11,097 nt of DNA from Candidatus Thorarchaeota archaeon. Lineage in GTDB: Archaea > Asgardarchaeota > Thorarchaeia > Thorarchaeales > Thorarchaeaceae. The notes under the pieces were generated by a model. It worked only from the letters and a program-made list of their open reading frames with translations, was not told where the DNA came from and ran no database searches. Below, piece by piece: positions 47 to 11,097 of this stretch; position 1 is the stretch's first letter; every line of letters starts with the position of its first letter. The stretch is from positions 1 through 11,097 of the forward strand of contig JAEORO010000047.1 of assembly GCA_016840855.1 (NCBI GenBank), written 5' to 3'. Position numbers and translations under genes: made by a program.

Positions 47-2302
47 TTATCGCCCCCTCTTATCTAGTATAAGTCCTAGAATTAGTATACCTGCTATTAC
101 TCCCATTGAAAGCATAAGCATTCCAAAAGTGACTGCATCACTCATATCATCGTCTGGAGTTCCAGGACTATCTCCAGTTCCTGTTGTTATGGACGTTGTT
201 GTAGTTGCTGATGACCCATCCTCTGTCACGGTTACAATAACTATGTCTGAAATCGTGTTCCCTCCCTCATCTGCTACTGTGAGTTCATATTCATATGTGC
301 CAACGCTCAACCAGTCAATATTGATGATAATTTGTTGTCCACCCCATCCTCCAGAAAGAATGATAACTCCATTAACTTGTATGGTGAACTCAGATGGGTG
401 AGCATCAGAAGGAGTCCAAGTAATGTTGTGGCCAGTAGTTGCCACTTGGTAGAGGATGTCTGGTGGACTATCCACTATGGGTGCAGATCCGTCAAGAACT
501 GAAACTATGACTTCATCAAAAATTGAATTATCACCTACATCATTTACGATTATAATGAAAATGTGAGTGCCATAAGCCAGGCCATCACAGGATGCAATGA
601 TCACTTCTAAGCTTGAATTCCAAAGTCCCTTTTTCATTAATGTGCCATCAAGAAAGATTTCGTATGATACCGGATTAAGATCACTCGGCGTCCAAGTTAT
701 GAATTCACCAACATCACCTTCGTTGATTGCAATATCCATTGGTGAATCAATTGTTGGCTTTGTATCATCATAAACAGTAACTATCACTAAATCACTTGTA
801 GTATGATTCGCAAGATCATAAACAATGATGGTAAACTCATAGATACCTATTGAGAGTCCATCAATTGAGATTGAGATTGTTTCTGAGCTTGCATTCCACA
901 ATCCCGACTTCACTAGAACGTTATTCAGGAATATCTCATAAGTTGAAGGATCGACATCAATCGGTGACCAGTCGATTATGTTGCCTATGGAGCCTTCAGG
1001 TATAATTTGGTCTAAAGGATGGTCAATAATAGGCTCTGGTGGAAATATCACAGTGACAAGAACTTCATCAGAAATCGAGTTTCCACTTGTGTCTGTAACT
1101 ACGATTGTGAAATTATACGTGGCAATTGTTAATCCATCGATTGGCTCGATAATTGGATCGCCACTCCATGCTTCAAATCGTATGATTTCATCATTACGGT
1201 ATATTGTGAATGTACTTGGATTCAAATCTGAGGCATTCCATACAATCGAATTTCCTGTCGAGCCTTCAGAATACTCTATATCTGGAGGATGATCTATACT
1301 AGGATTGGTGTCATCGATTAGTGTGACAAATGTAGTATCTTTTGCAGTATTTCCACTTGCATCAAACACAACTAGTGTATAGTTATATTCCCCTAAAGAA
1401 ACTCCAGCAAGAGATACAATAATATTTCCTCCAATCCAAACATCTGTATCAACTAGAACTCCATCTCTGTACGCATCGTAGCTAGAAGGGTGTAAATCTG
1501 AACAAGTCCAGGTTAACGATGCAAAAGCTCCTTGCGAAATAGTAGAGTTATCTAAGTGATTTATGACTGGTAGCGTTTCATCCATTACCAGTACATTGAC
1601 TTGATCAACAGCCATGTTATCATAGTCATCATATACAATAATTGTCAGATTGTGAGTTCCAGCTGACAGGGTGCCCAAGCCAACACTAATTGAAGAACCA
1701 TTCCATAATCCATTAGAGAATAATACACCGTTGTCGAGGACTTCATATCTGTCCGGATAGGCATCGTTTGGATTCCATGTGATGAATTCTGAGAAGTTCC
1801 CCTCAACGATTTCCATGTCCGGGGGGCTGTCGATTGTAGGTGGCACTGGATCTTTGACTTCTATGGCGATGTCTAGGCTCTGAGACCCATTTACTGCTGC
1901 ACTCCATACTCTTATTGTATAAAACCCTAGATTTTGAGGTGTAAATGTGCAATCGCATATGACTCTGAATTTTGAAGAAGAAAGATCACCAGCTGTGTTA
2001 TCCTGAATCTCCATTGGAGTGAAAGTGAAATTGTCATTATCTGCCCATCCATATTGAATACTAACGTATAGATCTGTGCCACCAAATGATGGTTTTGAAG
2101 CATCAATCCTCAATGTGAACGGAATTCCAACATATGCTGCTCCTGTAGAATTTGATGAGATTGTATACGATCCATCAATGGTATGGCACTCCCCACATTC
2201 TAATGTATAGCCAGAATGCGCAATTGTTGCAATTGCTCCAAGAAAGAGGAGAAGTGAAAAAGCACTGATTATTCCAAGTATTGTTCTAGTCCTTCGGTTC
2301 AT
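47..2302 (-). CDS. Secreted, C-terminally anchored surface protein with a single CxxCH (putative c-type heme) N-terminal domain and six ~90-aa Ig-like repeats
   Basis: ATG at 2302 gives a Sec-type signal peptide (MNRRTRTILGIISAFSLLLFLGAIATIA), then HSGYTLECGECH, six repeats, a Thr/Ser/Asp linker, a hydrophobic helix and a basic tail DKRGR. Many N-x-S/T sequons. Start moved from the ORF-track TTG at 2377. Confidence 0.85.
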   Translation of the reverse strand: MNRRTRTILGIISAFSLLLFLGAIATIAHSGYTLECGECHTIDGSYTISSNSTGAAYVGIPFTLRIDASKPSFGGTDLYVSIQYGWADNDNFTFTPMEIQDNTAGDLSSSKFRVICDCTFTPQNLGFYTIRVWSAAVNGSQSLDIAIEVKDPVPPTIDSPPDMEIVEGNFSEFITWNPNDAYPDRYEVLDNGVLFSNGLWNGSSISVGLGTLSAGTHNLTIIVYDDYDNMAVDQVNVLVMDETLPVINHLDNSTISQGAFASLTWTCSDLHPSSYDAYRDGVLVDTDVWIGGNIIVSLAGVSLGEYNYTLVVFDASGNTAKDTTFVTLIDDTNPSIDHPPDIEYSEGSTGNSIVWNASDLNPSTFTIYRNDEIIRFEAWSGDPIIEPIDGLTIATYNFTIVVTDTSGNSISDEVLVTVIFPPEPIIDHPLDQIIPEGSIGNIIDWSPIDVDPSTYEIFLNNVLVKSGLWNASSETISISIDGLSIGIYEFTIIVYDLANHTTSDLVIVTVYDDTKPTIDSPMDIAINEGDVGEFITWTPSDLNPVSYEIFLDGTLMKKGLWNSSLEVIIASCDGLAYGTHIFIIIVNDVGDNSIFDEVIVSVLDGSAPIVDSPPDILYQVATTGHNITWTPSDAHPSEFTIQVNGVIILSGGWGGQQIIINIDWLSVGTYEYELTVADEGGNTISDIVIVTVTEDGSSATTTTSITTGTGDSPGTPDDDMSDAVTFGMLMLSMGVIAGILILGLILDKRGR
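227..1855 (-). repeat. Six tandem ~90-aa Ig-like (PKD/HYR-like beta-sandwich) protein repeats
   Basis: Consensus D..P.ID.P.D....EG..G..I.W...D..P..Y.I..N/DG.....G.W......I.IDGL..G.Y..TI.V.D..GN...D.V.VTV recurs six times over 543 codons; diverged at DNA level. Confidence 0.9.
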
Positions 2303-2358
2303 TTGATAACACTCAGCTGTGGTATGCTCTCCCAAACGCGCGGAGTGTCTGAAACCGG

Positions 2359-2366
2359 TTATATAA
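2359..2366 (-). promoter_or_regulatory. Putative archaeal TATA box for the surface-protein gene
   Basis: TTATATAA about 57 nt upstream of ATG 2302 on the minus strand. Confidence 0.45.
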
Positions 2367-2554
2367 GAATACTTCAAAATGATTTAGAGTTACAAACCTC
2401 AACATTTGTTACTTGAAGCCTGTAGCTAATGTTAGAATTTTAAACAGAGTCAATTTTTGGGTTCCAGATTGAATACTCTTCTAAAGTGTTTCAAAACATT
2501 CTCAGGATTATTTCGATTCTTCTAATATTGTTACATTTCTCAACTCTCGCTAGG

Positions 2555-2562
2555 TTTTTATC
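2555..2562 (+). promoter_or_regulatory. Possible TATA-like box for the flavoprotein-NuoB fusion gene
   Basis: TTTTTATC about 60 nt upstream of ATG 2623; GGAGA SD-like element at 2610-2614. Confidence 0.3.
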
Positions 2563-2622
2563 TTACAAATTTCCAAGCCCTAAACTGTAAGCGGCTCTGT
2601 TCATGAGCTGGAGAGTGGACTC

Positions 2623-4563
2623 ATGGTCCTAAAAGCTGAACCGAAAGAGAAACTAGAGGAAATTTTTGGAGACCGCCTAATAACTGAGAAGCATGAATTG
2701 ATTTTATTCGGACAGGATGTTGGGTCGCTCCCAAAACAAGTAGGTTGGCTCATGAACACAAAACCTGATGCCATTGTCCAACCTCAAGGTCCTGAAGATA
2801 TTCAAGCACTCTATAAGGTTGCACGAGAGTTCAAGATACCGTTAGTTCCTCGAGCAGCGGGAACATCCGGATATGGAGGCGCAATTCCAAGAAAAGGCGG
2901 AGTTGTTGTAGACATGCGCCGAATGGACAAGATTCTAGAGGTTGACAGCGAGAATCTGACTGTTACAGTAGAGCCAGGAATTTCATGGGCAAATCTCCAG
3001 TTTGAATTGAACAGGCAAGGTTTGGACACTAGATGCTATCCATCATCAGGACTTTCAGCCACAGTTGGAGGATGGGTGGCACAAGGTGGCGATGGTATTG
3101 GGTCTCTCAAGTATGGTAACATCAACAAGAATGTCGTGAAACTTGAAGTTGTTCTACCAACTGGAAAACTTGTCAAAACAAAAGATCTTGATTTATTCTG
3201 TGACACCGAAGGAATTCTTGGAATCATCACCAAGGTCACCTTGAAGATCAAAACACTAACACCCATGAAGGTTATCGTTTCAAGTTTCGAAGAGAACTAT
3301 CAGATGGTCCTAGCTATTGAGAAGATACTAGAAGATGGACCGCTACCATTCACGATTAAGTTCGAAGAGTCAAAATACACAGACCTCAAGAAAGCAATCT
3401 GGGAGGGTAAAAAACCATTCCCAATTCCAGCTCATCATTGTTCATTGATGGTAGCCTATGAAGGTGATGAGGAAGAAATAGAGGAAGGCATCAGAGTAGT
3501 CAAAGATGTCACCGAGATGTATAGAGGATTCGTCTACGATGATGAGGTTGCTGAACACGAGTGGCATGATCGCTATTACCCAATGAAAATCAAGAAGAAA
3601 GGACCTACACTCGTAGTTGGTCAAGCTTTTGCTCCACTCGAAAATCTCGCTGCAGTCCTAGATGACTTCCAGTTCGAACAAGCATCAGCAAAGGCTGGCA
3701 TTGATGGTTATGTGAACTCCAAAACTGGAGTAACAATGATGGGTTACTTCCTTGAGGATGAGAGAAGAATGTTCTACATGTTCTCATGGTCTCAGAGCTT
3801 TGTAATATTCAAGATAGCTCAACGTCATGGTGGACATGTTCACTCAACAGGTATCTGGTTTGCTAACTATGCCTCACAATACTTTGGGAAAGAAAGACTT
3901 GCACGAATCAGGGCGGCGAAGCTCCAATGGGATAAGAAGGAGATATCCAATCCGGGTAAGATCTTTGCGTACTGGCTACCCTTCATTCTTAAGATTGGTA
4001 AGTATTTCTTGTGGATTTTCTATGACCTGTTCAGGAATGGTTTTGGACGAATCGCGCCAATCCTCCTGAAATGGCTACAGAACGTACCACCATTGAAGTG
4101 GATGTTGAGGTGGGGCCGAGCACATAGTCCTTGGCCAATGCAATATGGTATTGGTTGTTGCATGGTGGATGGTGCTGCAGGAATCGCTCCTCGTTGGGAC
4201 TTTGAAAGGTTTGGAATGCTCCCACTCTTTGGTCCGAGGCAGACAGATGTACTGTGGATTTCAGGTTCACTAACTAAGAAAATGGCTCCACGACTGAGAC
4301 GTATCTATGAGCAAATGCCAGAGCCAAAATATGTCATCGCTTTCGGTCAGTGTGTTGCATCAGGAGGGCTCTTTTGGGAAGGATACAGTCTTGCTACACC
4401 ACCCGACAAGATTGTACCTGTAGACGTCTATCTCCCCGGCTGTCCTCCGAAGCCAGCTGATTTCATTCGAGCGCATGTCATCTTGCAGAACAAAATCCGT
4501 GCTGGAACTACTCACTGGCAAAAGAAATACGAGAACCAAGATGCAATGGGGATGATGCAATAA
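2623..4563 (+). CDS. Fusion: FAD-binding oxidoreductase (GlcD/D-lactate dehydrogenase-like, FAD_binding_4 plus cap domain) + NuoB/FpoB-like Fe-S subunit
   Basis: N-terminal motifs PDAIVQP, PLVPRAAGTSGYGGAIP, TVTVEPG, ATVGGWVA, SLKYG, TEGILGIITKVTLK, ending NPGKIF (~3966). The C-terminal part from ~4090 has NuoB motifs WGRAHSPWP, GIGCC, DFERFG, PRQTDVL..SG, KMAPRLRRIYEQMPEPKYVIAFGQCVASGG, PVDVYLPGCPPKP. One uninterrupted frame. Confidence 0.93.
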   Translation: MVLKAEPKEKLEEIFGDRLITEKHELILFGQDVGSLPKQVGWLMNTKPDAIVQPQGPEDIQALYKVAREFKIPLVPRAAGTSGYGGAIPRKGGVVVDMRRMDKILEVDSENLTVTVEPGISWANLQFELNRQGLDTRCYPSSGLSATVGGWVAQGGDGIGSLKYGNINKNVVKLEVVLPTGKLVKTKDLDLFCDTEGILGIITKVTLKIKTLTPMKVIVSSFEENYQMVLAIEKILEDGPLPFTIKFEESKYTDLKKAIWEGKKPFPIPAHHCSLMVAYEGDEEEIEEGIRVVKDVTEMYRGFVYDDEVAEHEWHDRYYPMKIKKKGPTLVVGQAFAPLENLAAVLDDFQFEQASAKAGIDGYVNSKTGVTMMGYFLEDERRMFYMFSWSQSFVIFKIAQRHGGHVHSTGIWFANYASQYFGKERLARIRAAKLQWDKKEISNPGKIFAYWLPFILKIGKYFLWIFYDLFRNGFGRIAPILLKWLQNVPPLKWMLRWGRAHSPWPMQYGIGCCMVDGAAGIAPRWDFERFGMLPLFGPRQTDVLWISGSLTKKMAPRLRRIYEQMPEPKYVIAFGQCVASGGLFWEGYSLATPPDKIVPVDVYLPGCPPKPADFIRAHVILQNKIRAGTTHWQKKYENQDAMGMMQ

Positions 4564-5138
4564 TGTACATTCGACAAGATAGTGATCCATATTGCCTGCT
4601 TTTTCTTGGTCTAGTTATTCTCACAGCATATATCTTTAATTTCGTATATCTTGGATTCTTATTGCCTGCAGTCTCCCTTATCATAGCAGGCTCTTTCACT
4701 CTTATCGGCGGCATGTCTATCCTCTTGGTTTTCTTTCTAATTGGATACTTTAGACCTGAAAAAGGGAAAGGAAAGAACTTGATGATGGCTTTGTCCATTA
4801 CATTTGGTTTCTTTTATGTGGTCTTTGTTGATAGATTTGCTGTAGCAGTGCCATCTGCTGGTAGTACTCTCTACCTTTCATTCTGGGGCTTAGGAGGAGT
4901 AATTCTTACTGCGGCTGGTTTTGCAATGATGCATAACCAAGAGGAAAGCTATTCTCCAGGAATATTGGATACACAAGCGTTACACTATGGTCCAGAACCA
5001 GAGCCTGAACCTGAAGCTGAGCCTGAAGAAGAGGTCGACAAAGAACCTGAAATGACATCAGTGACTGAGACCCCAACAGCCACTGATGAAAGTGTCAAGA
5101 CTCCCTCTGAACCATCATCTGATGCTGGGGATGAATGA
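4563..5138 (+). CDS. Hypothetical membrane protein (about 4 TM helices) with acidic Pro/Glu-rich C-terminal tail
   Basis: ATG overlaps the fusion gene's stop (TAATG), implying translational coupling; four hydrophobic stretches, then EPEPEPEAEPEEE. Confidence 0.75.
   Translation: MYIRQDSDPYCLLFLGLVILTAYIFNFVYLGFLLPAVSLIIAGSFTLIGGMSILLVFFLIGYFRPEKGKGKNLMMALSITFGFFYVVFVDRFAVAVPSAGSTLYLSFWGLGGVILTAAGFAMMHNQEESYSPGILDTQALHYGPEPEPEPEAEPEEEVDKEPEMTSVTETPTATDESVKTPSEPSSDAGDE
4992..5027 (+). repeat. Imperfect 6-nt tandem repeat encoding (PE)n
   Basis: ccagaa ccagag cctgaa cctgaa gctgag cctgaa. Confidence 0.7.
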
Positions 5139-5147
5139 AACTATTTC

Positions 5148-5504
5148 CTACTCATGAAGCCAATTGAAAGCAGCAAATGCTATCAGAAGTCCAATCCCCA
5201 TCCATGCGAATAGGATAATTGCCTCGATTAAGCTATACATCGTGAAGACGAGGTATAGATGGATTCCTCCAAGAATACCTGTAAGCATAGTAAGAGCAAT
5301 TCTACCTGAACGTGTGTTGGCCGAGGCGAATCCGAATGTGGTTCCTACAAGTAATAATCCGCCAAGAACGAGAACCCAGTAAAAGAGCAAATTCACTACA
5401 ACGATTGGAGTGGTCATGAGTGTCCAGAAGTAGGCTCCCAAGAGCGCCATTCCAATCAGAAGAGCCAGATAATAGAAGAATGTTCCTTCTTCGCCACGAA
5501 CCAA
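5148..5504 (-). CDS. Hypothetical small membrane protein (4 TM helices)
   Basis: 118 aa, almost entirely four hydrophobic helices; TTG start with GGTGA SD at 5510-5514 (minus strand); convergent with the 4563-5138 gene, 9-nt gap. Confidence 0.75.
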   Translation of the reverse strand: MVRGEEGTFFYYLALLIGMALLGAYFWTLMTTPIVVVNLLFYWVLVLGGLLLVGTTFGFASANTRSGRIALTMLTGILGGIHLYLVFTMYSLIEAIILFAWMGIGLLIAFAAFNWLHE

Positions 5505-5878: not shown

Positions 5879-6349
5879 ATGATGCAGAATGATATTAGAT
5901 TGTATGAGCTATTCATCCCTGTTTTAATATGGGCAATATTGGCTGTTGTTCTTGTTGTTGTGATGCTCCTTGCATCTTGGGTGCTACGTCCCCATGTGCT
6001 GCAAAACTCCGAGAAAACATCAACATATGAATGTGGAGAAGAACCAGTTGGTCCAGCAAGAATTTCATACCCATACAACTATTTCATCTATACAGTGCTT
6101 TTCGTTGTAGTTGATGTCATGGGCGCCTTTCTCTGGCTCATTTCCGCTTCAAATATTCTCTGGACTGATGCTACCAAGTATGTAGTGGTATGGCAGGTGG
6201 CTTTGTTTGTGTTAATAATTATTGGCGGTATCGCCTTTGTTATTAAAATGCTACCACATGCAGCTTTGGATGGTAAAGAAACACTTCTGGTCTATAACAA
6301 AGCGAAAGCAGAGAGAGAACGAGAACAACACGTGATAGGAGGTCATTAA
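5879..6349 (+). CDS. nuoA: Complex I-like subunit A
   Basis: Three TM helices; loop EKTSTYECGEEPVG; YFIYTVLFVVVDV matches the YY..AILFVIFDVE helix. Confidence 0.92.
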   Translation: MMQNDIRLYELFIPVLIWAILAVVLVVVMLLASWVLRPHVLQNSEKTSTYECGEEPVGPARISYPYNYFIYTVLFVVVDVMGAFLWLISASNILWTDATKYVVVWQVALFVLIIIGGIAFVIKMLPHAALDGKETLLVYNKAKAEREREQHVIGGH

Positions 6350-6351
6350 GA

Positions 6352-7008
6352 TTGCAAGATTTTGAGCCATTTTTTGATTTAATGGAACCTCTAGAATTCC
6401 TCTTGATTGCTGGTATAGTATTAGTTCTTGCATATCTTGCACTTGAACACAAAGAGATTGTCTATTCCGCATTCTTCTTCGGATTCATGGCATCATTTGT
6501 TGCAGGGTTCTTCCTTCTACTCGAAGCACCTTTCATCGCCGGTATGCAGATTGCAGTTTACACAGGAGGCATCAGTGCTCTGATCATCTTTGCTGTCCTA
6601 CTCCTACCAAGAGCTCAAGATTCATCACTTGAAACATTCTCGCCACCATATAAACGTAGAATTGGACTTCTAATGGCTGCACTAGTCATAGTACTATCAG
6701 GTATTCTTGCGTTTATCTTTCCGTGGGCTGAGTCATTCGAAAGTTCAATTATCGAAATCTCAAACAACCTGAATGAACTTGCTATGTGGCTGTGGGCAGA
6801 CAACGGTATCTACGTTCAGATGATTGCCCTAATCATGATCACATCACTAGTTGGTTCTATTGCACTGATGAAGATGGATAGGGCAGAACAGCTTGTATCA
6901 ATTCAAGGTGAGTTTGGCATAGGAGCTGAACCTGAATTAGAGGAAATTGAGTCTACTGTAGGTGATGAATCAGCACCAGAAGATGAAGAGGAGGCTGATG
7001 ACCAATGA
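6352..7008 (+). CDS. nuoJ: Complex I-like subunit J
   Basis: VYSA...FLLLEAPFIAGMQIAVYTGGISALIIFAVLL is the NuoJ TM3 signature; TTG start with GGAGGT at 6338-6343; acidic tail. Confidence 0.9.
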   Translation: MQDFEPFFDLMEPLEFLLIAGIVLVLAYLALEHKEIVYSAFFFGFMASFVAGFFLLLEAPFIAGMQIAVYTGGISALIIFAVLLLPRAQDSSLETFSPPYKRRIGLLMAALVIVLSGILAFIFPWAESFESSIIEISNNLNELAMWLWADNGIYVQMIALIMITSLVGSIALMKMDRAEQLVSIQGEFGIGAEPELEEIESTVGDESAPEDEEEADDQ

Positions 7009-7325
7009 TACCCCTTTCATGGTATCTTGCCCTATCATTCATGCTGATAGGTCTAGGTGGATATGGGATGATGGTCAAGAGAAACCTCATCCGGATTCTA
7101 ATTGGTGCTGAGATAATGGGAAATGGAGTCAATATTGCACTTGTTGCTGTTTCCCTCTATAGTCCGATATTCACGTTCACAGGACAGGGACTAATTATCC
7201 TAGTTATCTCAGTTGCTGCTGCACACACGGCTTTGGCTCTGGTGTTGATGTTGATGTATAACCGACGTTATGGAACTGTTGACCTTGGACAACCAATCGA
7301 AATGGAGGAATCTCAACATGTCTGA
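7005..7325 (+). CDS. nuoK: Complex I-like subunit K
   Basis: 106 aa, three TMs, KRNLIRILIGAEIMGNG and VISVAAA motifs; ATGA overlap with nuoJ. Confidence 0.92.
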   Translation: MIPLSWYLALSFMLIGLGGYGMMVKRNLIRILIGAEIMGNGVNIALVAVSLYSPIFTFTGQGLIILVISVAAAHTALALVLMLMYNRRYGTVDLGQPIEMEESQHV

Positions 7326-7845
7326 CTCGTCTACAATTAACGCTTCGACCTTTGGACGACTTGTCATTAATAAGATTCCAGAGGTGTCTTCAAAACCTCT
7401 CGAAGGCAACAAAATAGAGCTAATTGTTCCAGCTAGTAAGATTCGAGATGTTGTGACAATCATAGATGATGAGATAGAAGATGCTCTCCCTGAGTCTGTT
7501 TTTGGTGTGGATCTTGAGAACGATCAATACGAACTCATCTACATCTTCTGGTCTCATAACAACCGATTGCTTGTGCAACTGAGAGTATCCCTCCAGGGTG
7601 AGAATCCAGAGATTGAATCTACCTGTGATATATTTCCCGGTCTTGAATGGCATGAACGAGAAGTTAGAGAGATGTTTGGTGTGAACATCAAGAATCATCC
7701 TGACCCCCGTCTCTTTCTGCTTCCCGATGAATTAGAAGGTGCATATCCTCTTCGTAAGAGATTCCAGACCGATCAGAGCAGACTTGACGAGACTGGCATA
7801 TCTACGCCAAAAGCAAGACCAGCTTCTGGAGGTGAAGACAAGTGA
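7318..7845 (+). CDS. nuoC: Complex I-like subunit C
   Basis: WHEREVREMFGV...HPDPRLFLLP...YPLRKRF motif; start placed at ATG 7318 with GGAGGA at 7304-7309 rather than ORF-track 7270. Confidence 0.92.
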   Translation: MSDSSTINASTFGRLVINKIPEVSSKPLEGNKIELIVPASKIRDVVTIIDDEIEDALPESVFGVDLENDQYELIYIFWSHNNRLLVQLRVSLQGENPEIESTCDIFPGLEWHEREVREMFGVNIKNHPDPRLFLLPDELEGAYPLRKRFQTDQSRLDETGISTPKARPASGGEDK

Positions 7846-8978
7846 GTCCCGATATTCTTGACGAATCAATGGAAATCTGGTTCGGTCCCCAACACGTGTC
7901 AGCACATGGATGGGCCACAAAGTTGACACTCGTAGGTGACTATGTAGTAGAATGTGACCCTAACGCTGGCTACTTCCATCGTTCTGCAGAGAAAGTCCTT
8001 GAGTTCAAAAACTTCAGACAAGGTTCTCTAGTGTTAGAAAGAATGTGCATGCTCGAGGCATTCTTAGCTGAATATCCCTATGTTGCCGCAGTTGAGAAGA
8101 TCGCTGAGCTAGAGGTCCCTGAACGCGCGAAAATCATGAGAACCATCATGATGGAGCTATCTCGTCTTCATAGTATCCAATTTTGGTGGGGACAATTTAA
8201 TGCTGAACTTGGATTCTTCACTATGGCATTATGGCCATGGGTCGATCGTGAATATACACTAGACGCTTTCGAAGAGCTAACTGGTTCACGACATACCGTT
8301 TCGTTCGCAACACCTGGTGGTGTTAAGTATGACTTCACTGATAAATTCATGAAGCAGCTAAACCGGGCAATTGAACGGTTTGAAGATCGACTTCCTAAAT
8401 TCAGAGATATGCAAATGGGGAGTCCTACCTTCAGAGCAAGAACTGAGAACATCGGCACATACGATATTAAGCAGGGTCTCAAATGGGGACTGAGTGGTCC
8501 TCCAATCAAAGCTTGCGGCGTCCCTATGGACCTGCGAAAGGATGACCCAGATCCTAACTTAGCTTATGACATGGTTGATTGGGAGGTTCCTATCACTGAA
8601 AATCCTGAGCATCCAGGTCAAAGTGATGCACTTGACAGGATGGAACAACGATTCAAAGAAGCTCAGGTGGCTGCAGATATCATTAAACAATTGATTCCTC
8701 AGATACCTGAGGGTGAGATTATTGACCCGAAAGCGCGAGCAAAAGCAAACAGACTCCCTGAAGGAGAGGCATATGCTCGAGTTGAAGGAACCCGAGGAAT
8801 CACATCATTGTGGCTTAAGACGCAGGACAAAGCACAGACGGCCTATCGAGCAAAGATTCGTGGTCCTTGTATCGCGTCGTATTATGCGTTGAAGGACCTA
8901 GTGCCTGGCTCAAAGTTTGCTGACTTCATTGTGATATTTGGAAGCTTAGATCCATATCCAGGGTGGTGGGATCGCTAA
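7842..8978 (+). CDS. nuoD: Complex I-like subunit D (49 kDa family; lacks [NiFe] ligand set)
   Basis: FGPQHVSAHG, GYFHRSAEK, PERAKIMRTIMMELSRLHS, PGGV, GLSGP, DLRKDDP, YARVEGTRG, YRAKIRGP, C-terminal GSLDPYPGWWDR; GTG start with GGAGGTGA at 7828-7835. Confidence 0.93.
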   Translation: MSPDILDESMEIWFGPQHVSAHGWATKLTLVGDYVVECDPNAGYFHRSAEKVLEFKNFRQGSLVLERMCMLEAFLAEYPYVAAVEKIAELEVPERAKIMRTIMMELSRLHSIQFWWGQFNAELGFFTMALWPWVDREYTLDAFEELTGSRHTVSFATPGGVKYDFTDKFMKQLNRAIERFEDRLPKFRDMQMGSPTFRARTENIGTYDIKQGLKWGLSGPPIKACGVPMDLRKDDPDPNLAYDMVDWEVPITENPEHPGQSDALDRMEQRFKEAQVAADIIKQLIPQIPEGEIIDPKARAKANRLPEGEAYARVEGTRGITSLWLKTQDKAQTAYRAKIRGPCIASYYALKDLVPGSKFADFIVIFGSLDPYPGWWDR

Positions 8979-8989
8979 TGGGAGGTGTC

Positions 8990-10129
8990 ATGTTGCAGTT
9001 TGATTTCTTTGCATGGCTGGCTGGAATTCCTGAATGGCTCTATGGGATTATTCAGTGGATATTTAGCATCATTAGTGGTATTTTCTATTGGATCTTTGAC
9101 CTTTTCAGATGGATCTGGGCTGCTATCTTTATTCCAGATAATTTCATGTTCCTCTTCCGAGCTGTCTTGTTCCCTGGACTGATATTTGTAGTCTTAGCAT
9201 TGATATGGGCAGTTTGGTTCACGAGAAAATTATGGGGCCGCATTCAGGATAGACGAGGTCCTGTACATATGGGTAAATATGGAGGTCTCCAACTCTTTGC
9301 AGATGCCATCAAACTAATTGCAAAAGAAACCATTATCCCAGATAATGCAAAGCGCTGGATGTTCCGATTCTTACCTGGACTACTTCTGGTCGTGGTCCTC
9401 TTACCTTTCTGCTTTATTCCTTGGGATCTCGACTATTGGTATATTGCTGACCTCTCAGTTAGTCTTGTGCTAGTCTTTGCCTTTCTCACTGCAGTACCAG
9501 TTATCGCACTCCTTGCAGGTTGGGTCAGTGGGTCAAAGTATTCACTTATTGGCGGTTTCAGAGCTGCAAACAACCAATTCGCTGCTGAGATTCCAATGAT
9601 AATCTCGACTATCGGACCTGCATTGCTTGCAGGGTCCCTAAGTCTGATGGGAATTGCAAGAGCCCAGGAGTCTATTTGGTTTGCAGCATTACTCCCCATC
9701 AACCTTGCAACATTCTTAGTTGCTGCAATAGCATCCGTTGGCGTGTTCCCATTTGATGCCCCTGTAGCTGACTCTGAGATTATCTTTGGCTGGAGAACAG
9801 AGTTCACTGGAATTTACTTTACACTCACCTACTTCGCAGAGTTTGCAGAGCAGATGTTGTATTCCGCGCTCATTGTTGCATTATTCCTAGGCGGACCAGT
9901 TGGTCTACCCTTCCTTCCTGGCGCTGTTAATTTTGTTATCAAGTTCATTATCACGTTCTTCTTCTTTGTATTAGTCAGTTCCTCATTCCAGCGACTGCGA
10001 CAGGATCAGATAGTTCATTATTGCTGGAAATATCTGCTACCTCTTGCGCTCTTGAATGTCATAATCGCAATGTTTGCGATAGTCTACGTCCCTGGACTTG
10101 CTGCATTGCTACCCTTGGGAGGTGGTTAA
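8990..10129 (+). CDS. nuoH: Complex I-like subunit H with N-terminal aromatic extension
   Basis: RIQDRRGP, GGLQLFADAIKLIAKE, SKYSLIGGFRA, PFD...SE...G...EF, RLRQDQ...CWKYLLP; start ATG 8990 following GGAGGTG at 8981-8987. Confidence 0.93.
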   Translation: MLQFDFFAWLAGIPEWLYGIIQWIFSIISGIFYWIFDLFRWIWAAIFIPDNFMFLFRAVLFPGLIFVVLALIWAVWFTRKLWGRIQDRRGPVHMGKYGGLQLFADAIKLIAKETIIPDNAKRWMFRFLPGLLLVVVLLPFCFIPWDLDYWYIADLSVSLVLVFAFLTAVPVIALLAGWVSGSKYSLIGGFRAANNQFAAEIPMIISTIGPALLAGSLSLMGIARAQESIWFAALLPINLATFLVAAIASVGVFPFDAPVADSEIIFGWRTEFTGIYFTLTYFAEFAEQMLYSALIVALFLGGPVGLPFLPGAVNFVIKFIITFFFFVLVSSSFQRLRQDQIVHYCWKYLLPLALLNVIIAMFAIVYVPGLAALLPLGGG

Positions 10130-10132
10130 ACA

Positions 10133-10564
10133 ATGGGATTCTTCAGTGTACTAGGAGATTGTTTCCAGATTCTGAAACATACATTCAGACAGGTCTTCAA
10201 GAGACCCTTCACATACTTCTTCCCATTCGAGGACAGGATTTACCCTGAAAGAACTCGAGGAAGACACATTCACGTTCGAAAGAATTGCACAGCTTGCGCG
10301 CAATGCGTGCGTGCCTGTCCTGTTGTTGCTATACGAATGGACAAAGATGACAAGATGTACGAAAAAGATGCTGCATTGTATTTCGACTACACTCGATGCA
10401 TCTTCTGCGGTCTCTGTGTTCAAGCCTGTAGATTTGATGCTCTATTCCATACTCCAGTAGTCGATTTGAGTGAGGGCGACCGCGAGGATCTCATCTATGG
10501 GCCTGATAAAATTGAAACCCTTGATAGGGACCCGCTAGAGTGGCGTGGAAGGAGGTTCCGTTAA
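10133..10564 (+). CDS. nuoI: Complex I-like subunit I (2x[4Fe-4S])
   Basis: TYFFP...RTRGRH, CTACAQCVRACP and CIFCGLCVQAC; SD GGAGGTGG at 10118-10125. Confidence 0.93.
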   Translation: MGFFSVLGDCFQILKHTFRQVFKRPFTYFFPFEDRIYPERTRGRHIHVRKNCTACAQCVRACPVVAIRMDKDDKMYEKDAALYFDYTRCIFCGLCVQACRFDALFHTPVVDLSEGDREDLIYGPDKIETLDRDPLEWRGRRFR

Positions 10565-11097
10565 ATGCAGATCACAGACCTCCCCTTTGCAGCTTTGTCT
10601 CTTACAGTGCTCTTCTTCGGAGGACTTCTAATCTATGTGTCCAAGAGCAGGTTGGAAAAAACAGCTGGACGAGTTGCTGTTGGATTCTCAGCAGTTGCTT
10701 CACTCTTGATGGTCTATCCATTCTATCAAGTTGTATCCGGAGCCGTCGCTGAATACACAGAATATGCCACATGGTCAATACTACTTGAGCAGTTTGGACT
10801 CAAACTTGATGGAATTGCTTTTCCAATCACATTTGCAGTTGTCGTGCTTGGCTTTCTATCGGTTGTCTATGCAGTTGGTTATACTGAACATACTGAGAAT
10901 AAGGCCACCTTCTTTGCGAATCAACTCTTCTTCCTCATGGGCATGCAATGGGTTACTCTCGCTACGAACTTGATTGAGTTCTTCATTGCATGGGAGATAA
11001 TGCTGGTCCCAAGCTATTTTCTGATTCTGTTCTGGGGATTGCCTGAAACACGTAAGCGGACTGCTTTGAAGTTCTGGTTATACACTCAATCAGGTGC
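10565..11097 (+). CDS. nuoM: Antiporter-like subunit, most like NuoM (partial, runs off the window; not in the ORF track)
   Basis: Own translation from ATG 10565: MQITDLPFAALSLTVLFFGG...FGLKLDGIAFP...ATNLIEFFIAWEIMLVPSYFLILFWG...RKRTALKFWLYTQSG, open to the window end; conserved TM5 Glu (WE); SD GGAGGT at 10551-10556. Confidence 0.85.
   Translation, partial: MQITDLPFAALSLTVLFFGGLLIYVSKSRLEKTAGRVAVGFSAVASLLMVYPFYQVVSGAVAEYTEYATWSILLEQFGLKLDGIAFPITFAVVVLGFLSVVYAVGYTEHTENKATFFANQLFFLMGMQWVTLATNLIEFFIAWEIMLVPSYFLILFWGLPETRKRTALKFWLYTQSG

What the first reader, a model, noticed from the sequence alone, without database searches (positions are those of the whole stretch)
2623..4563. Flavoprotein (GlcD/D-LDH fold) fused to the NuoB N2-cluster subunit: a complex I with a built-in alternative redox module
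Seen: one ORF joins a ~450-aa FAD oxidoreductase to a complete NuoB with all four N2 ligands (CC at 4156-4161, GQC, PGCPP), and the neighbouring nuo operon has no nuoB between A and C/D. Established: complex I-like enzymes normally take electrons through NuoEFG, FpoF or ferredoxin docking on NuoI, and NuoB/D form the acceptor site. Inference: the flavin domain is a covalently tethered input or output module coupling redox of a soluble organic substrate or carrier to ion pumping, or to reverse electron transport. I recall that similar FAD-dehydrogenase/NuoB fusions were noted in some Asgard metagenome bins, so it may be seen-but-uncharacterised rather than wholly new; check the literature.
Basis: partly seen in the sequence, partly recalled or inferred. 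Interest (0 to 1): 0.92.

Follow-up and report, generated by a model that had tools for sequence, protein, structure and literature searches.

The report
Flavoprotein fused to complex I NuoB
In one family of Asgard (Thor) archaea the only NuoB subunit of a complex I-like ion pump carries a lactate-dehydrogenase-like flavin domain on its front end, which points to a way of wiring this pump that has not been described.

Summary
ORF 2623-4563 (646 aa) joins FAD_binding_4 and FAD-oxidase_C domains, through a conserved 45-aa amphipathic linker, to a complete NuoB with all four N2 cysteines. It is the only NuoB found in this 92%-complete Thorarchaeial genome, and nuoAJKCDHI(L/M/N) lies downstream without a nuoB.

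The junction is real. It is conserved in at least 59 of the 400 Asgard genomes searched, all in genera g1-g12 of one family, and contigs from four runs of four studies bridge it.

- An HdrD-like Fe-S/CCG gene lies divergently within 400 bp of the fusion gene in 37 of those 59 genomes. Its product is predicted to dock its ferredoxin-like domain on the flavin domain (ipSAE 0.90, best control 0.00).
- NuoD has lost the quinone-binding tyrosine (RxCM instead of RxDY, 27 of 27), and neither menaquinone-pathway marker tested was found.
- The metal-binding residues of D-lactate dehydrogenase are not conserved, so the substrate is unknown.

Best reading: a flavin/HdrD-like redox module tethered at the membrane heel of a ferredoxin-linked, probably quinone-independent pump. 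The direction of electron flow and the substrate are inferred. My nine literature searches found no description of the fusion.

The parts
2623..4563 (+). Fusion gene: flavodomain, linker and NuoB, 646 aa
   Evidence: Conserved at full length in relatives.
2764..3180 (+). FAD_binding_4 domain (aa 48-186)
   Evidence: E 1.4e-40. AF2 pLDDT is about 95.
3268..3963 (+). FAD-oxidase_C (cap) domain, aa 216-447. The active-site region diverges from D-LDH; H405 and H407 are invariant in the fusion clade.
   Evidence: Foldseek top hit is mouse LDHD, TM 0.85 normalised by target.
3964..4098 (+). Conserved aromatic, amphipathic linker (aa 448-492), running into NuoB helix H1. Predicted helices are 451-472, 477-486 and 491-501.
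   Evidence: Maximum hydropathy is 1.34, below that of a typical transmembrane helix. Helices. Mean identity is 84% over 37 fused homologues, against 77% for the FAD part. dN is 0-0.07. The linker is also present in the unfused orthologues P0051 and P0052.
4099..4512 (+). NuoB domain (aa 493-630) with N2 ligands C512, C513, C577 and C607
4563..5138 (+). 191-aa membrane protein of no known family. Its start codon overlaps the stop codon of the fusion gene. It has an acidic PE-rich tail.
   Evidence: Conserved at the same place in 13 of 13 relatives' loci; one of those is a contig-end fragment.
5148..5504 (-). 118-aa membrane protein of no known family, on the opposite strand
   Evidence: Found in 12 of 13 relatives' loci; two of those are weak or partial matches.
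5879..6349 (+). nuoA
   Evidence: PF00507.
6352..7008 (+). nuoJ
   Evidence: PF00499.
7005..7325 (+). nuoK
   Evidence: PF00420.
7270..7845 (+). nuoC
   Evidence: PF00329.
7842..8978 (+). nuoD, the only one found in the genome. It has the motif ERMCM instead of RxDY and keeps none of the NiFe Cys pairs.
8963..10129 (+). nuoH
   Evidence: PF00146.
10133..10564 (+). nuoI (two 4Fe-4S motifs)
10565..11095 (+). First antiporter-like subunit (NuoL/M/N type), cut by the contig end
   Evidence: In the complete genome G320, four PF00361 genes follow nuoI.

Best explanation
SHOWN
- In genera g1-g12 of one Thorarchaeial family, the only NuoB found for a complex I-like enzyme is made as a single polypeptide with an N-terminal VAO/PCMH-type flavodomain. 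The rest of the enzyme is NuoA, J, K, C, D, H, I plus antiporter-like subunits, four of them in the complete genome G320.
- The two halves are joined by a strongly conserved amphipathic linker that runs straight into NuoB helix H1.
- An HdrD/TfrB/GlcF-type protein (two 4Fe-4S motifs plus two CCG domains) is encoded divergently next to the fusion gene in most relatives. In the one genus with an unfused orthologue it lies directly upstream of it.
- That protein is predicted with high confidence to dock its ferredoxin-like domain on the FAD face of the flavodomain.

INFERRED
- The flavodomain and the HdrD-like protein form a redox module. It resembles the GlcD-HdrD pairs of other archaea and the FAD-FeS-CCG single-chain proteins of about 870-1060 aa.
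- The module is held at the membrane heel of the peripheral arm, beside the NuoB/NuoD/NuoH junction.
- NuoD has lost the quinone-ligating Tyr, neither menaquinone marker tested was found, and NuoE/F/G and a linked FpoF are absent. The pump is therefore most likely ferredoxin-linked at NuoI.
- The pump would then use the flavin/HdrD-like module in place of a quinone pool as its other redox terminus. One direction is ferredoxin oxidation coupled to reduction of a disulfide or 2-oxoacid-level acceptor, with ion export. The other is the reverse, with the ion gradient driving electrons from a roughly -150 to -200 mV donor up to ferredoxin.
- The substrate of the flavin site is unknown. It is not a canonical metal-dependent D-lactate dehydrogenase.
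For: Architecture and uniqueness:
- Domain architecture.
- Only NuoB and only NuoD found in the genome.
- No NuoF. The single FrhB-like gene is below its cut-offs and lies beside ribA, not nuo.

Conservation:
- 45 full-length clusters.
- Only one 50%-identity cluster with both halves appears among the best 150 of 1.84 billion representatives.
- At least 59 of 400 Asgard genomes carry it, all in family f1, genera g1-g12.
- All three parts are under purifying selection: dN is 0.014-0.075 in nine same-genus comparisons, with dS saturated. The linker is better conserved than the FAD domain.
- Independent contigs bridge the junction.

HdrD-like partner:
- Within 400 bp and divergent in 37 of 59 genomes. 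On the same contig, 1.4-9.6 kb away and still divergent, in 14. On another contig in 6, including the window's genome. Not listed in 2.
- Directly upstream of the unfused orthologue in both g14 genomes.
- Orthologue present in g1-g12 and g14. No orthologue-level match in g13, g15 or g16: 0/3, 0/3, and 2/7 with only 31%-identical paralogue hits.
- Complex model: ipSAE 0.90 in three runs, best of three controls 0.00, partner pLDDT 91, at least 97% of contacts shared between runs. In the tool's calibration 58 of 80 solved complexes and 2 of 110 mismatched pairs reached the mark. The interface uses HdrD-like residues 13-88, which hold the Cys motifs, and FAD-domain loops 79-81 and 142-147.
- Relatives of the flavodomain are fused to Fer4+CCG, and one to NrfD.

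Acceptor site and carriers:
- NuoD has R[MLI]CM in 27 of 27 sequences of the fusion clade and R[IL]S[ML] in 5 of 5 of the sister clade. 20 of 21 other NuoDs have DY and one has EY.
- The best solved relative of NuoD is MbsL of the sulfane reductase MBS.
- PF02621 (MqnA/D) gave no hit, and MenD gave only a 59.6-bit hit against a cut-off of 244.
- Four antiporter-like subunits in G320.

Literature precedents (passages read):
- hdrD colocated with glcD, proposed to reduce heterodisulfide (PMC6421429).
- Fpo-like complex proposed to work with HdrD (PMC6147122).
- Mbh-like complexes of other Asgard lineages with a peripheral heterodisulfide-reductase domain (bioRxiv 10.1101/2024.07.04.601786, section 7).
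Against: - No coordinates were returned, so no FAD-to-cluster or HdrD-to-N2 distance was measured. Whether any electron passes between the module and N2 or NuoI is untested.
- The position of the NuoB N-terminus at the membrane interface is recalled from published complex I structures, not computed here.
- The complex model is a model. Close paralogues can also pass, and the genome has at least 8 HdrD-like paralogues. A small molecule rode along, unlike in the calibration.
- In the window's own genome the HdrD-like gene is on another contig (C228).
- Absence of quinone rests on two marker families in a 92%-complete MAG. Another lipid carrier, such as a methanophenazine-like one, cannot be excluded.
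- The flavodomain lacks the recalled LDHD metal ligands, so its catalytic competence and substrate are unknown.
- Redox potentials used in the argument are recalled textbook values.
Confidence: 0.5

Rival explanations
1. One reading: the flavodomain is a D-lactate/glycolate dehydrogenase that hands electrons directly to N2 or to the NuoI clusters. The enzyme would then be a proton-pumping 2-hydroxyacid:quinone oxidoreductase.
For: - The fold is closest to mouse LDHD and LctD.
- It is covalently linked to the N2 subunit.
- No NuoEFG was found.
- The genome holds many Dld-HdrD-type pairs, so 2-hydroxyacid metabolism is plausible.
Against: - The recalled metal ligands H398, H405 and E442 of LDHD align with Y363, V370 and a deletion. 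The glcD equivalog scores 141 bits against a cut-off of 568.
- NuoD lacks the quinone Tyr, and neither menaquinone marker tested was found.
- A conserved Fe-S partner sits on the flavin face in the model.
- By recalled potentials, lactate to menaquinone yields too little energy for a pump with four antiporter-like subunits.
Confidence: 0.12
2. Tether only. The fusion anchors or co-assembles a flavin/HdrD-like enzyme on the complex, or regulates or assembles the complex, without electrons passing between the two. Parallels are accessory nucleotide-binding subunits of mitochondrial complex I, and the VAO-family enzyme GLDH bound to a plant complex I assembly intermediate.
For: - Unfused relatives already carry the amphipathic tail and work with their own partners: CCG proteins, and NrfD in one fusion.
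- GLDH appears as a chain of a plant complex I entry, 7a24_z. Its role in assembly is recalled.
- The NuoB N-terminus is recalled to lie far from NuoI's distal cluster.
Against: - The fusion is the only NuoB found and co-occurs with a remodelled NuoD site lacking the quinone Tyr. That leaves the pump with no obvious acceptor unless the module supplies one.
- The linker is more conserved than the flavodomain. This suggests a fixed geometry rather than a loose tether.
Confidence: 0.25
3. The flavodomain is a catalytically dead structural domain (a pseudoenzyme).
For: Canonical D-LDH metal ligands are missing.
Against: - FAD-binding motifs are kept: P76, R77, G93, G150, W151, G156, G158, G160 and others are conserved with the unfused homologues.
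- Clade-specific invariant residues lie in the cap domain: H405, H407, Q334.
- dN is low.
- The Fe-S partner docks at the flavin face in the model.
Confidence: 0.06
4. Assembly or gene-calling artefact: two genes wrongly joined.
For: In G334 the gene is split at about aa 435.
Against: - The same G334 locus also has a broken nuoD, so the split looks like sequence errors.
- At least 59 genomes, 45 protein clusters and contigs from four studies carry the uninterrupted frame.
Confidence: 0.01

Closest known systems
GlcD-HdrD (Dld-like) pairs of Bathyarchaeota, Verstraetearchaeota and Archaeoglobus, and single-chain FAD-Fer4-CCG proteins of about 870-1060 aa
   Same: - Same flavodomain fold and subfamily: 31-40% identity, same GGxxYSTG-type motif region and same amphipathic tail.
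- Same kind of Fe-S/CCG partner.
- glcD colocated with hdrD has been noted in print (PMC6421429, passages).
   Different: - Here the flavoprotein is covalently part of NuoB of a complex I-like pump.
- The clade has its own cap-domain residues: H405, H407 and Q334 instead of R/x, Y and E.
Fpo-like 11-subunit complex of Methanomassiliicoccales, proposed to work with HdrD
   Same: - A headless complex I-like pump without NuoEFG/FpoF.
- It is thought to oxidise ferredoxin and to use an HdrD-type protein rather than a lipid carrier (PMC6147122, passages citing Lang et al. 2015).
   Different: - That association is hypothetical and not covalent, and no flavodomain is involved.
- Here a flavodomain is fused to NuoB and the HdrD-like gene is a conserved neighbour.
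Mbh-like complexes of deep-branching Asgard lineages with a peripheral heterodisulfide-reductase domain (Appler et al. preprint)
   Same: An Asgard energy-converting complex of the complex I/Mbh superfamily carrying an Hdr-type peripheral module (section 7 read).
   Different: - Those are [NiFe] group 4 hydrogenases in other lineages.
- Here NuoD keeps only one of the four NiFe cysteines, the architecture is complex I-like, and the attachment runs through a flavodomain fused to NuoB.
- Thorarchaeia are not discussed there for this feature: four passages mentioning them were seen, none about it.
MBS, the membrane-bound sulfane reductase of Pyrococcus furiosus (PDB 6u8y)
   Same: - Best solved relative of the window's NuoD (197 bits).
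- A member of the superfamily that reduces neither quinone nor protons.
- It keeps the first Cys of the RxCxxC motif.
   Different: - The NuoB half is closer to complex I and NDH-1 NuoB (149.7 bits) than to MbsJ (102.2 bits).
- The second retained Cys of MbsL is absent here.
- MBS has no flavodomain.
Ferredoxin-dependent NDH-1 of cyanobacteria and chloroplasts
   Same: - NdhK is the best solved relative of the NuoB half (6hum_K, E 7.6e-43).
- No NuoEFG; ferredoxin docks near NdhI (recalled, and stated in the preprint read).
   Different: NDH-1 reduces plastoquinone and keeps the NuoD/NdhH Tyr.

Membership tests
NuoB / PSST / NdhK (Oxidored_q6, complex I type) | Family models above their curated cut-offs | tested here: met
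   NF005012 scores 175.6 bits against 116. TIGR01957 scores 166 against 142.7. PF01058 scores 80.8 against 27.
NuoB / PSST / NdhK (Oxidored_q6, complex I type) | Four Cys ligands of cluster N2 (CC...C...CP) | tested here: met
   C512, C513, C577 and C607 are present and aligned with at least 85% of 19 stand-alone NuoBs.
NuoB / PSST / NdhK (Oxidored_q6, complex I type) | Encoded with the other core subunits, and the only copy available to them | tested here: met
   nuoAJKCDHI plus an antiporter-like gene lie downstream. The other 3 PF01058 hits are VhuG/MvhG (two) and HydD hydrogenase subunits.
NADH:quinone oxidoreductase (canonical complex I) | NADH-oxidising module NuoE/F/G | tested here: not met
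   PF01512 (NuoF) gave no hit in the 92%-complete genome. NuoE and NuoG were not searched separately.
NADH:quinone oxidoreductase (canonical complex I) | Quinone-headgroup Tyr of NuoD (T. thermophilus Y87 in RxDY; numbering recalled) | tested here: not met
   ERMCM in the window. R[MLI]CM in 27 of 27 clade members. 20 of 21 other NuoDs have DY and one has EY. The T. thermophilus alignment is shown.
NADH:quinone oxidoreductase (canonical complex I) | A quinone pool made by the organism | tested here: inconclusive
   No PF02621 hit, and MenD only 59.6 bits against a cut-off of 244. Only two markers were tested, the MAG is incomplete, and other carriers were not tested.
F420H2 dehydrogenase (Fpo) | FpoF input subunit linked to the complex; FpoD-type D subunit | tested here: not met
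   One FrhB-like gene lies elsewhere beside ribA, with FpoF at 131 bits against a cut-off of 475. FpoD scores 248 against 600.
Group 4 [NiFe] hydrogenase (Mbh/Ech) | Two CxxC pairs ligating NiFe in the large subunit | tested here: not met
   Only the first Cys of the N-terminal pair remains. The C-terminus reads DPYPGWWDR with no Cys.
GlcD / D-lactate dehydrogenase (metal-dependent D-2-hydroxyacid dehydrogenases) | FAD_binding_4 plus FAD-oxidase_C fold | tested here: met
   (mouse LDHD, TM 0.85 normalised by target). Profile E-value 4e-69 to 8jdb.
GlcD / D-lactate dehydrogenase (metal-dependent D-2-hydroxyacid dehydrogenases) | His-His-Glu metal site and catalytic His (mouse LDHD H398, H405, E442, H443; numbering recalled, and H405 is named in PDB titles) | tested here: not met
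   In the profile alignment H398 aligns with Y363, H405 with V370, and the 'TGE' segment is deleted. Only the His after it is kept (H407), and it is Tyr in 91% of unfused subfamily members.
GlcD / D-lactate dehydrogenase (metal-dependent D-2-hydroxyacid dehydrogenases) | Equivalog-level score to glcD | tested here: not met
   TIGR00387 scores 141 bits against a cut-off of 567.9.
HdrD / TfrB / GlcF-type CCG iron-sulfur protein (the neighbour, not in the window) | Two 4Fe-4S motifs plus two CCG domains | tested here: met
   PF13183 plus two PF02754 stretches. All named equivalogs are below their cut-offs; the best is TfrB at 160 against 385, so the exact type is open.

The most novel reading that the evidence does not exclude
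A new type of energy-converting enzyme. It would be a complex I-like ion pump whose quinone site has been given up. Its second redox terminus would be a flavin/HdrD-like module fused to the N2 subunit, linking ferredoxin to a soluble disulfide or organic acid couple. Running forward it would be a new coupling site for fermentative and acetogenic Asgard archaea. Running backward it would let the ion gradient lift electrons from lactate-level donors to ferredoxin, for H2 formation or CO2 fixation in syntrophy.
Probability: 0.35. Interest if true: 0.9.

Novelty: new variant of a known kind. Interest (0 to 1): 0.76.

Why it matters
Complex I-like enzymes are modular, and each known input or output module defines a distinct way of conserving energy: NuoEFG, FpoF, ferredoxin docking, the NiFe site, the sulfane site.

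This case adds a covalent flavoprotein attachment to the N2 subunit itself. It comes with a conserved Hdr-type partner and a NuoD that has lost its quinone ligand. It occurs in Thorarchaeia, which one preprint describes as among the most widespread Asgard lineages (passage read).

If the module is in the electron path, three things follow:
- It gives a testable answer to how these organisms, which appear to lack quinones, use an 11-plus-subunit pump.
- It gives a way to handle electrons from donors at about -150 to -200 mV.
- It links Hdr-type chemistry with complex I evolution.

If it is only a tether, it is still a clear example of gene fusion recording a physical association between a dehydrogenase and a respiratory complex.

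Tried and rejected
Literature. Nine searches found no description of a FAD/GlcD-NuoB fusion. Spang et al. 2019 is not held. Supplements are closed, and those of the Asgard metabolism papers might mention it.

Expression. No RNA holder was listed for the gene, so nothing can be said about expression.

ESM Atlas. The nearest clusters are plain FAD oxidases with scores of 0.86 or less. No cluster with both domains was listed. This is a lead only and no evidence of absence.

Distant fusions elsewhere. The searches list only the best 120-150 hits, and genome rows are by similarity to this protein. A distant, independently arisen FAD-NuoB fusion cannot be excluded.

UbiA, polyprenyl synthase and geranylgeranyl reductase genes beside the HdrD-like gene. 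I considered them as genes for a prenylated carrier. I rejected that as evidence, because the same three families make archaeal membrane lipids.

Split gene in G334. I judged it to be sequence error, because nuoD in the same locus is also broken.

dN/dS. dS is saturated or not computable in many comparisons, so only dN and the computable ratios (0.04 or less) are used.

Direct distance measurement between FAD and N2. It was not possible, because the structure tools return no coordinates.

I did not test docking of the module on NuoB, NuoD or NuoI.
Full report
**What is in the window**

The window is a whole 11,097-bp contig (C207) of a 3.36-Mb MAG, 92% complete and 6% contaminated. Sources name the closest proteins as Candidatus Thorarchaeota.

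Genes, in order:
- A 776-aa repeat-rich surface protein on the minus strand (47-2377).
- The 646-aa fusion gene (2623-4563).
- A 191-aa membrane protein whose ATG overlaps the fusion's stop codon (4563-5138).
- A 118-aa membrane protein on the opposite strand (5148-5504).
- nuoA, J, K, C, D, H, I and the start of an antiporter-like gene (5879-11095).

**The observation**

Pfam finds FAD_binding_4 (aa 48-186), FAD-oxidase_C (aa 216-447) and Oxidored_q6 (aa 524-617) on the one chain. NCBIfam NuoB subfamily models are above their cut-offs over aa 493-630.

The four cysteines of the NuoB half (C512, C513, C577, C607) sit in the CC, GxC and GCPP contexts.

The best solved relatives of this half are NdhK and NDUFS7/PSST (E about 1e-43 to 1e-40). 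MbsJ and MbhJ score lower.

Within the genome:
- PF01058 has four hits, and the other three are hydrogenase small subunits: two VhuG/MvhG and one HydD.
- NuoD is found only in the window.
- NuoF is not found.
- The single FrhB-family gene lies beside ribA and is below the FpoF cut-off.

**Is the junction real?**

Yes, on several independent lines.
- 45 clusters of full-length proteins (615-667 aa, 73-94% identical) have both halves.
- Among 1.84 billion 50%-identity representatives, the best 150 hold one full-length fused representative and one fragment spanning the junction. The rest are one half only.
- A search of 400 Asgard genomes found the gene or fragments of it in at least 59. All are in family f1, genera g1-g12. 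Best E-values outside that family are 1e-98 or weaker and cover one half only.
- Contigs of four runs from four studies bridge the junction without rearrangement.
- Nonsynonymous divergence is low in all three parts while synonymous sites are saturated.
- The 45-aa linker is more conserved (84% mean identity) than the flavodomain (77%).

**The linker**

AF2 gives a confident flavodomain (pLDDT about 95). It predicts three helices at 451-472, 477-486 and 491-501, and the last is NuoB helix H1.

The first helix is aromatic and amphipathic. Its maximum hydropathy of 1.34 is below that of a typical transmembrane helix.

Unfused relatives of the flavodomain also end in an amphipathic tail.

From published complex I structures I recall that NuoB H1 lies on the membrane surface against NuoH and NuoA, next to the quinone-tunnel entrance. 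That placement is not computed here.

**The flavodomain**

Foldseek and a family profile place it closest to mouse LDHD, LctD, a glycolate oxidase and alkyl-DHAP synthase.

In the full-length profile alignment (E 4e-69), the residues I recall as the LDHD metal ligands are not kept:
- H398 aligns with Y363.
- H405 aligns with V370.
- The TGE segment holding the Glu is deleted.
- The following His is H407 here, but Tyr in 91% of unfused subfamily members.

The fusion clade and its unfused sister share their own invariant residues: H405, H407 and Q334. The glcD equivalog model scores 141 bits against a cut-off of 568.

The fold is therefore GlcD/D-LDH-like, but the substrate is open.

**The partner that the window does not show**

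The nearest unfused orthologues (P0051 and P0052, 498-499 aa, 55-57% identical, covering residues 2-494 including the linker) belong to genus g14. There the gene lies directly downstream of an HdrD-like gene with Fer4_8 and two CCG stretches.

The orthologue of that HdrD-like gene is on contig C228 in the window's genome. Among the 59 genomes with the fusion gene:
- In 37 it lies within 168-367 bp, always divergent.
- In 14 it is 1.4-9.6 kb away on the same contig, still divergent.
- In 6 it is on another contig.
- In 2 it is not listed.

In the subclade with larger gaps, the space holds homologues of the surface-protein genes that end C228 and begin C207. C228 and C207 are therefore probably neighbours, split by the assembler.

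The HdrD-like orthologue is found in g1-g12 and g14. There is no orthologue-level match in g13, g15 or g16.

A complex model of flavodomain 1-450 with this protein, FAD and two 4Fe-4S clusters scored ipSAE 0.90 in all three runs, against 0.00 for the best of three controls. Partner pLDDT was 91, and at least 97% of contacts were shared between runs. In the calibration the mark was reached by 58 of 80 solved complexes and 2 of 110 mismatched pairs.

The contacts join the Cys-motif region of the HdrD-like protein (residues 13-88) to FAD-binding loops 79-81 and 142-147.

This is a model, paralogues may also pass, and a ligand rode along unlike in the calibration.

Relatives of the flavodomain are often fused to Fer4+CCG, and one is fused to NrfD. 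This supports the same pairing.

**The acceptor site**

NuoD aligns best with MbsL of the sulfane reductase MBS.
- The RxDY motif, whose Tyr binds the quinone head group (recalled), is R[MLI]CM in 27 of 27 clade members.
- It is R[IL]S[ML] in 5 of 5 sister-clade sequences.
- 20 of 21 other NuoDs have DY and one has EY.
- The NiFe cysteines are absent except one.

Neither MqnA/D nor a MenD above its cut-off is found in the genome. In the complete genome G320 the operon carries four antiporter-like genes.

**How it most likely works**

Shown: a fixed, conserved physical link between a flavodomain and the N2 subunit; a conserved HdrD-like neighbour predicted to bind the flavin face; a remodelled NuoD site; and no NADH module.

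Inferred: the pump takes or gives electrons at NuoI with ferredoxin, as proposed for other headless complexes (passages). It would use the flavin/HdrD-like module at the membrane heel as its other terminus.

With recalled potentials (ferredoxin about -450 to -500 mV, lactate/pyruvate -190 mV, heterodisulfide about -140 mV), a span of roughly 0.3 V fits a pump with four antiporter-like subunits. Lactate to menaquinone would not.

The reverse direction, with the gradient driving reduction of ferredoxin, is equally allowed.

**Comparison with what is known**

The parts are known kinds:
- glcD-hdrD pairs (PMC6421429, passages).
- Fpo-like complexes proposed to work with HdrD (PMC6147122, passages).
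- Asgard Mbh-like complexes with a peripheral Hdr domain (preprint section 7).
- MBS.

What I did not find in print is the covalent flavodomain-NuoB fusion and its combination with the Tyr-less NuoD.

**Verdict**

It is a new variant of a known kind. Interest is high for bioenergetics and Asgard biology, and the mechanism still needs a structure or biochemistry.

Noticed in passing
window 47-2377 (-); L039 (G000:C228) 6873-8501 (-): Two repeat-rich surface-protein genes, 44% identical to each other, sit at the facing ends of contigs C207 and C228. Their homologues fill the 2-10 kb gap between the HdrD-like and fusion genes in G351, G344, G350 and G341. This looks like an insertion in a subclade of genus g1 and the probable cause of the assembly break.
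   Followed up: partly
rows, e.g. G373:C75:5168-6334, G357:C40:17898-19064, G338:C7:27106-28233: An HdrD-like paralogue (37-40% identical to the partner) carries one in-frame TAG in about 17 Thorarchaeial genomes. The copy in the window's genome (C137:14343-15506) has none. Possible recoding or a recurrent break; not examined.
   Followed up: no
G000:C137, about 9285-23751: A cluster of four flavodomain paralogues interleaved with four HdrD-like paralogues, with further pairs on C257, C175 and C104. It resembles the many Dld-HdrD pairs reported for Sif- and Jordarchaeia (PMC9723677, passages).
   Followed up: partly
L039 3719-5474 (-); L047 1612-3364 (+): Two genes follow the HdrD-like gene in both G000 and G320: a 421-aa membrane protein (DUF7530 plus a PNPOx/F420-type domain, about 5 hydrophobic segments) and a 161-aa PNPOx-like protein. 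The first may be a membrane partner of the HdrD-like protein.
   Followed up: partly
L046 (G320) 7433-14324 (-): Four PF00361 antiporter-like genes (518, 756, 514 and 505 aa) follow nuoI, one more than in canonical complex I. A Ras-family small GTPase gene lies just beyond.
   Followed up: partly
L036 (G003) 247-4463 and 7883-10030; L038 (G385) 1344-5448 and 8510-11385: In two other genomes a FAD / HdrD-like / FAD gene trio lies 3-5 kb from a complex I-like or Mbh-like gene cluster that has a stand-alone NuoB. This may hint at an association older than the fusion. It may also be chance, given the many such pairs per genome.
   Followed up: partly
L022 (G334) 2986-4940 and 8396-9533: Both the fusion gene and nuoD are split into two overlapping frames in this genome. 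These are probably sequencing errors rather than true fission.
   Followed up: partly
P0051 and P0052 (genus g14), C-terminus: The unfused orthologues end in ...PPLKW(I/L), the same residues that begin NuoB helix H1 in the fusion. More distant unfused relatives lack this extension. The g14 form may therefore be a secondary loss of the NuoB half.
   Followed up: partly
window 7270-7325: The listed nuoC frame overlaps the end of nuoK by 56 nt. The true nuoC start may be a later Met. Not examined.
   Followed up: no
P0233 (1391 aa), P0123 (867 aa): Relatives of the flavodomain occur fused to three GcvH domains plus Fer4+CCG, and to an N-terminal NrfD membrane domain. Both are further unexplored architectures of this subfamily.
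   Followed up: no
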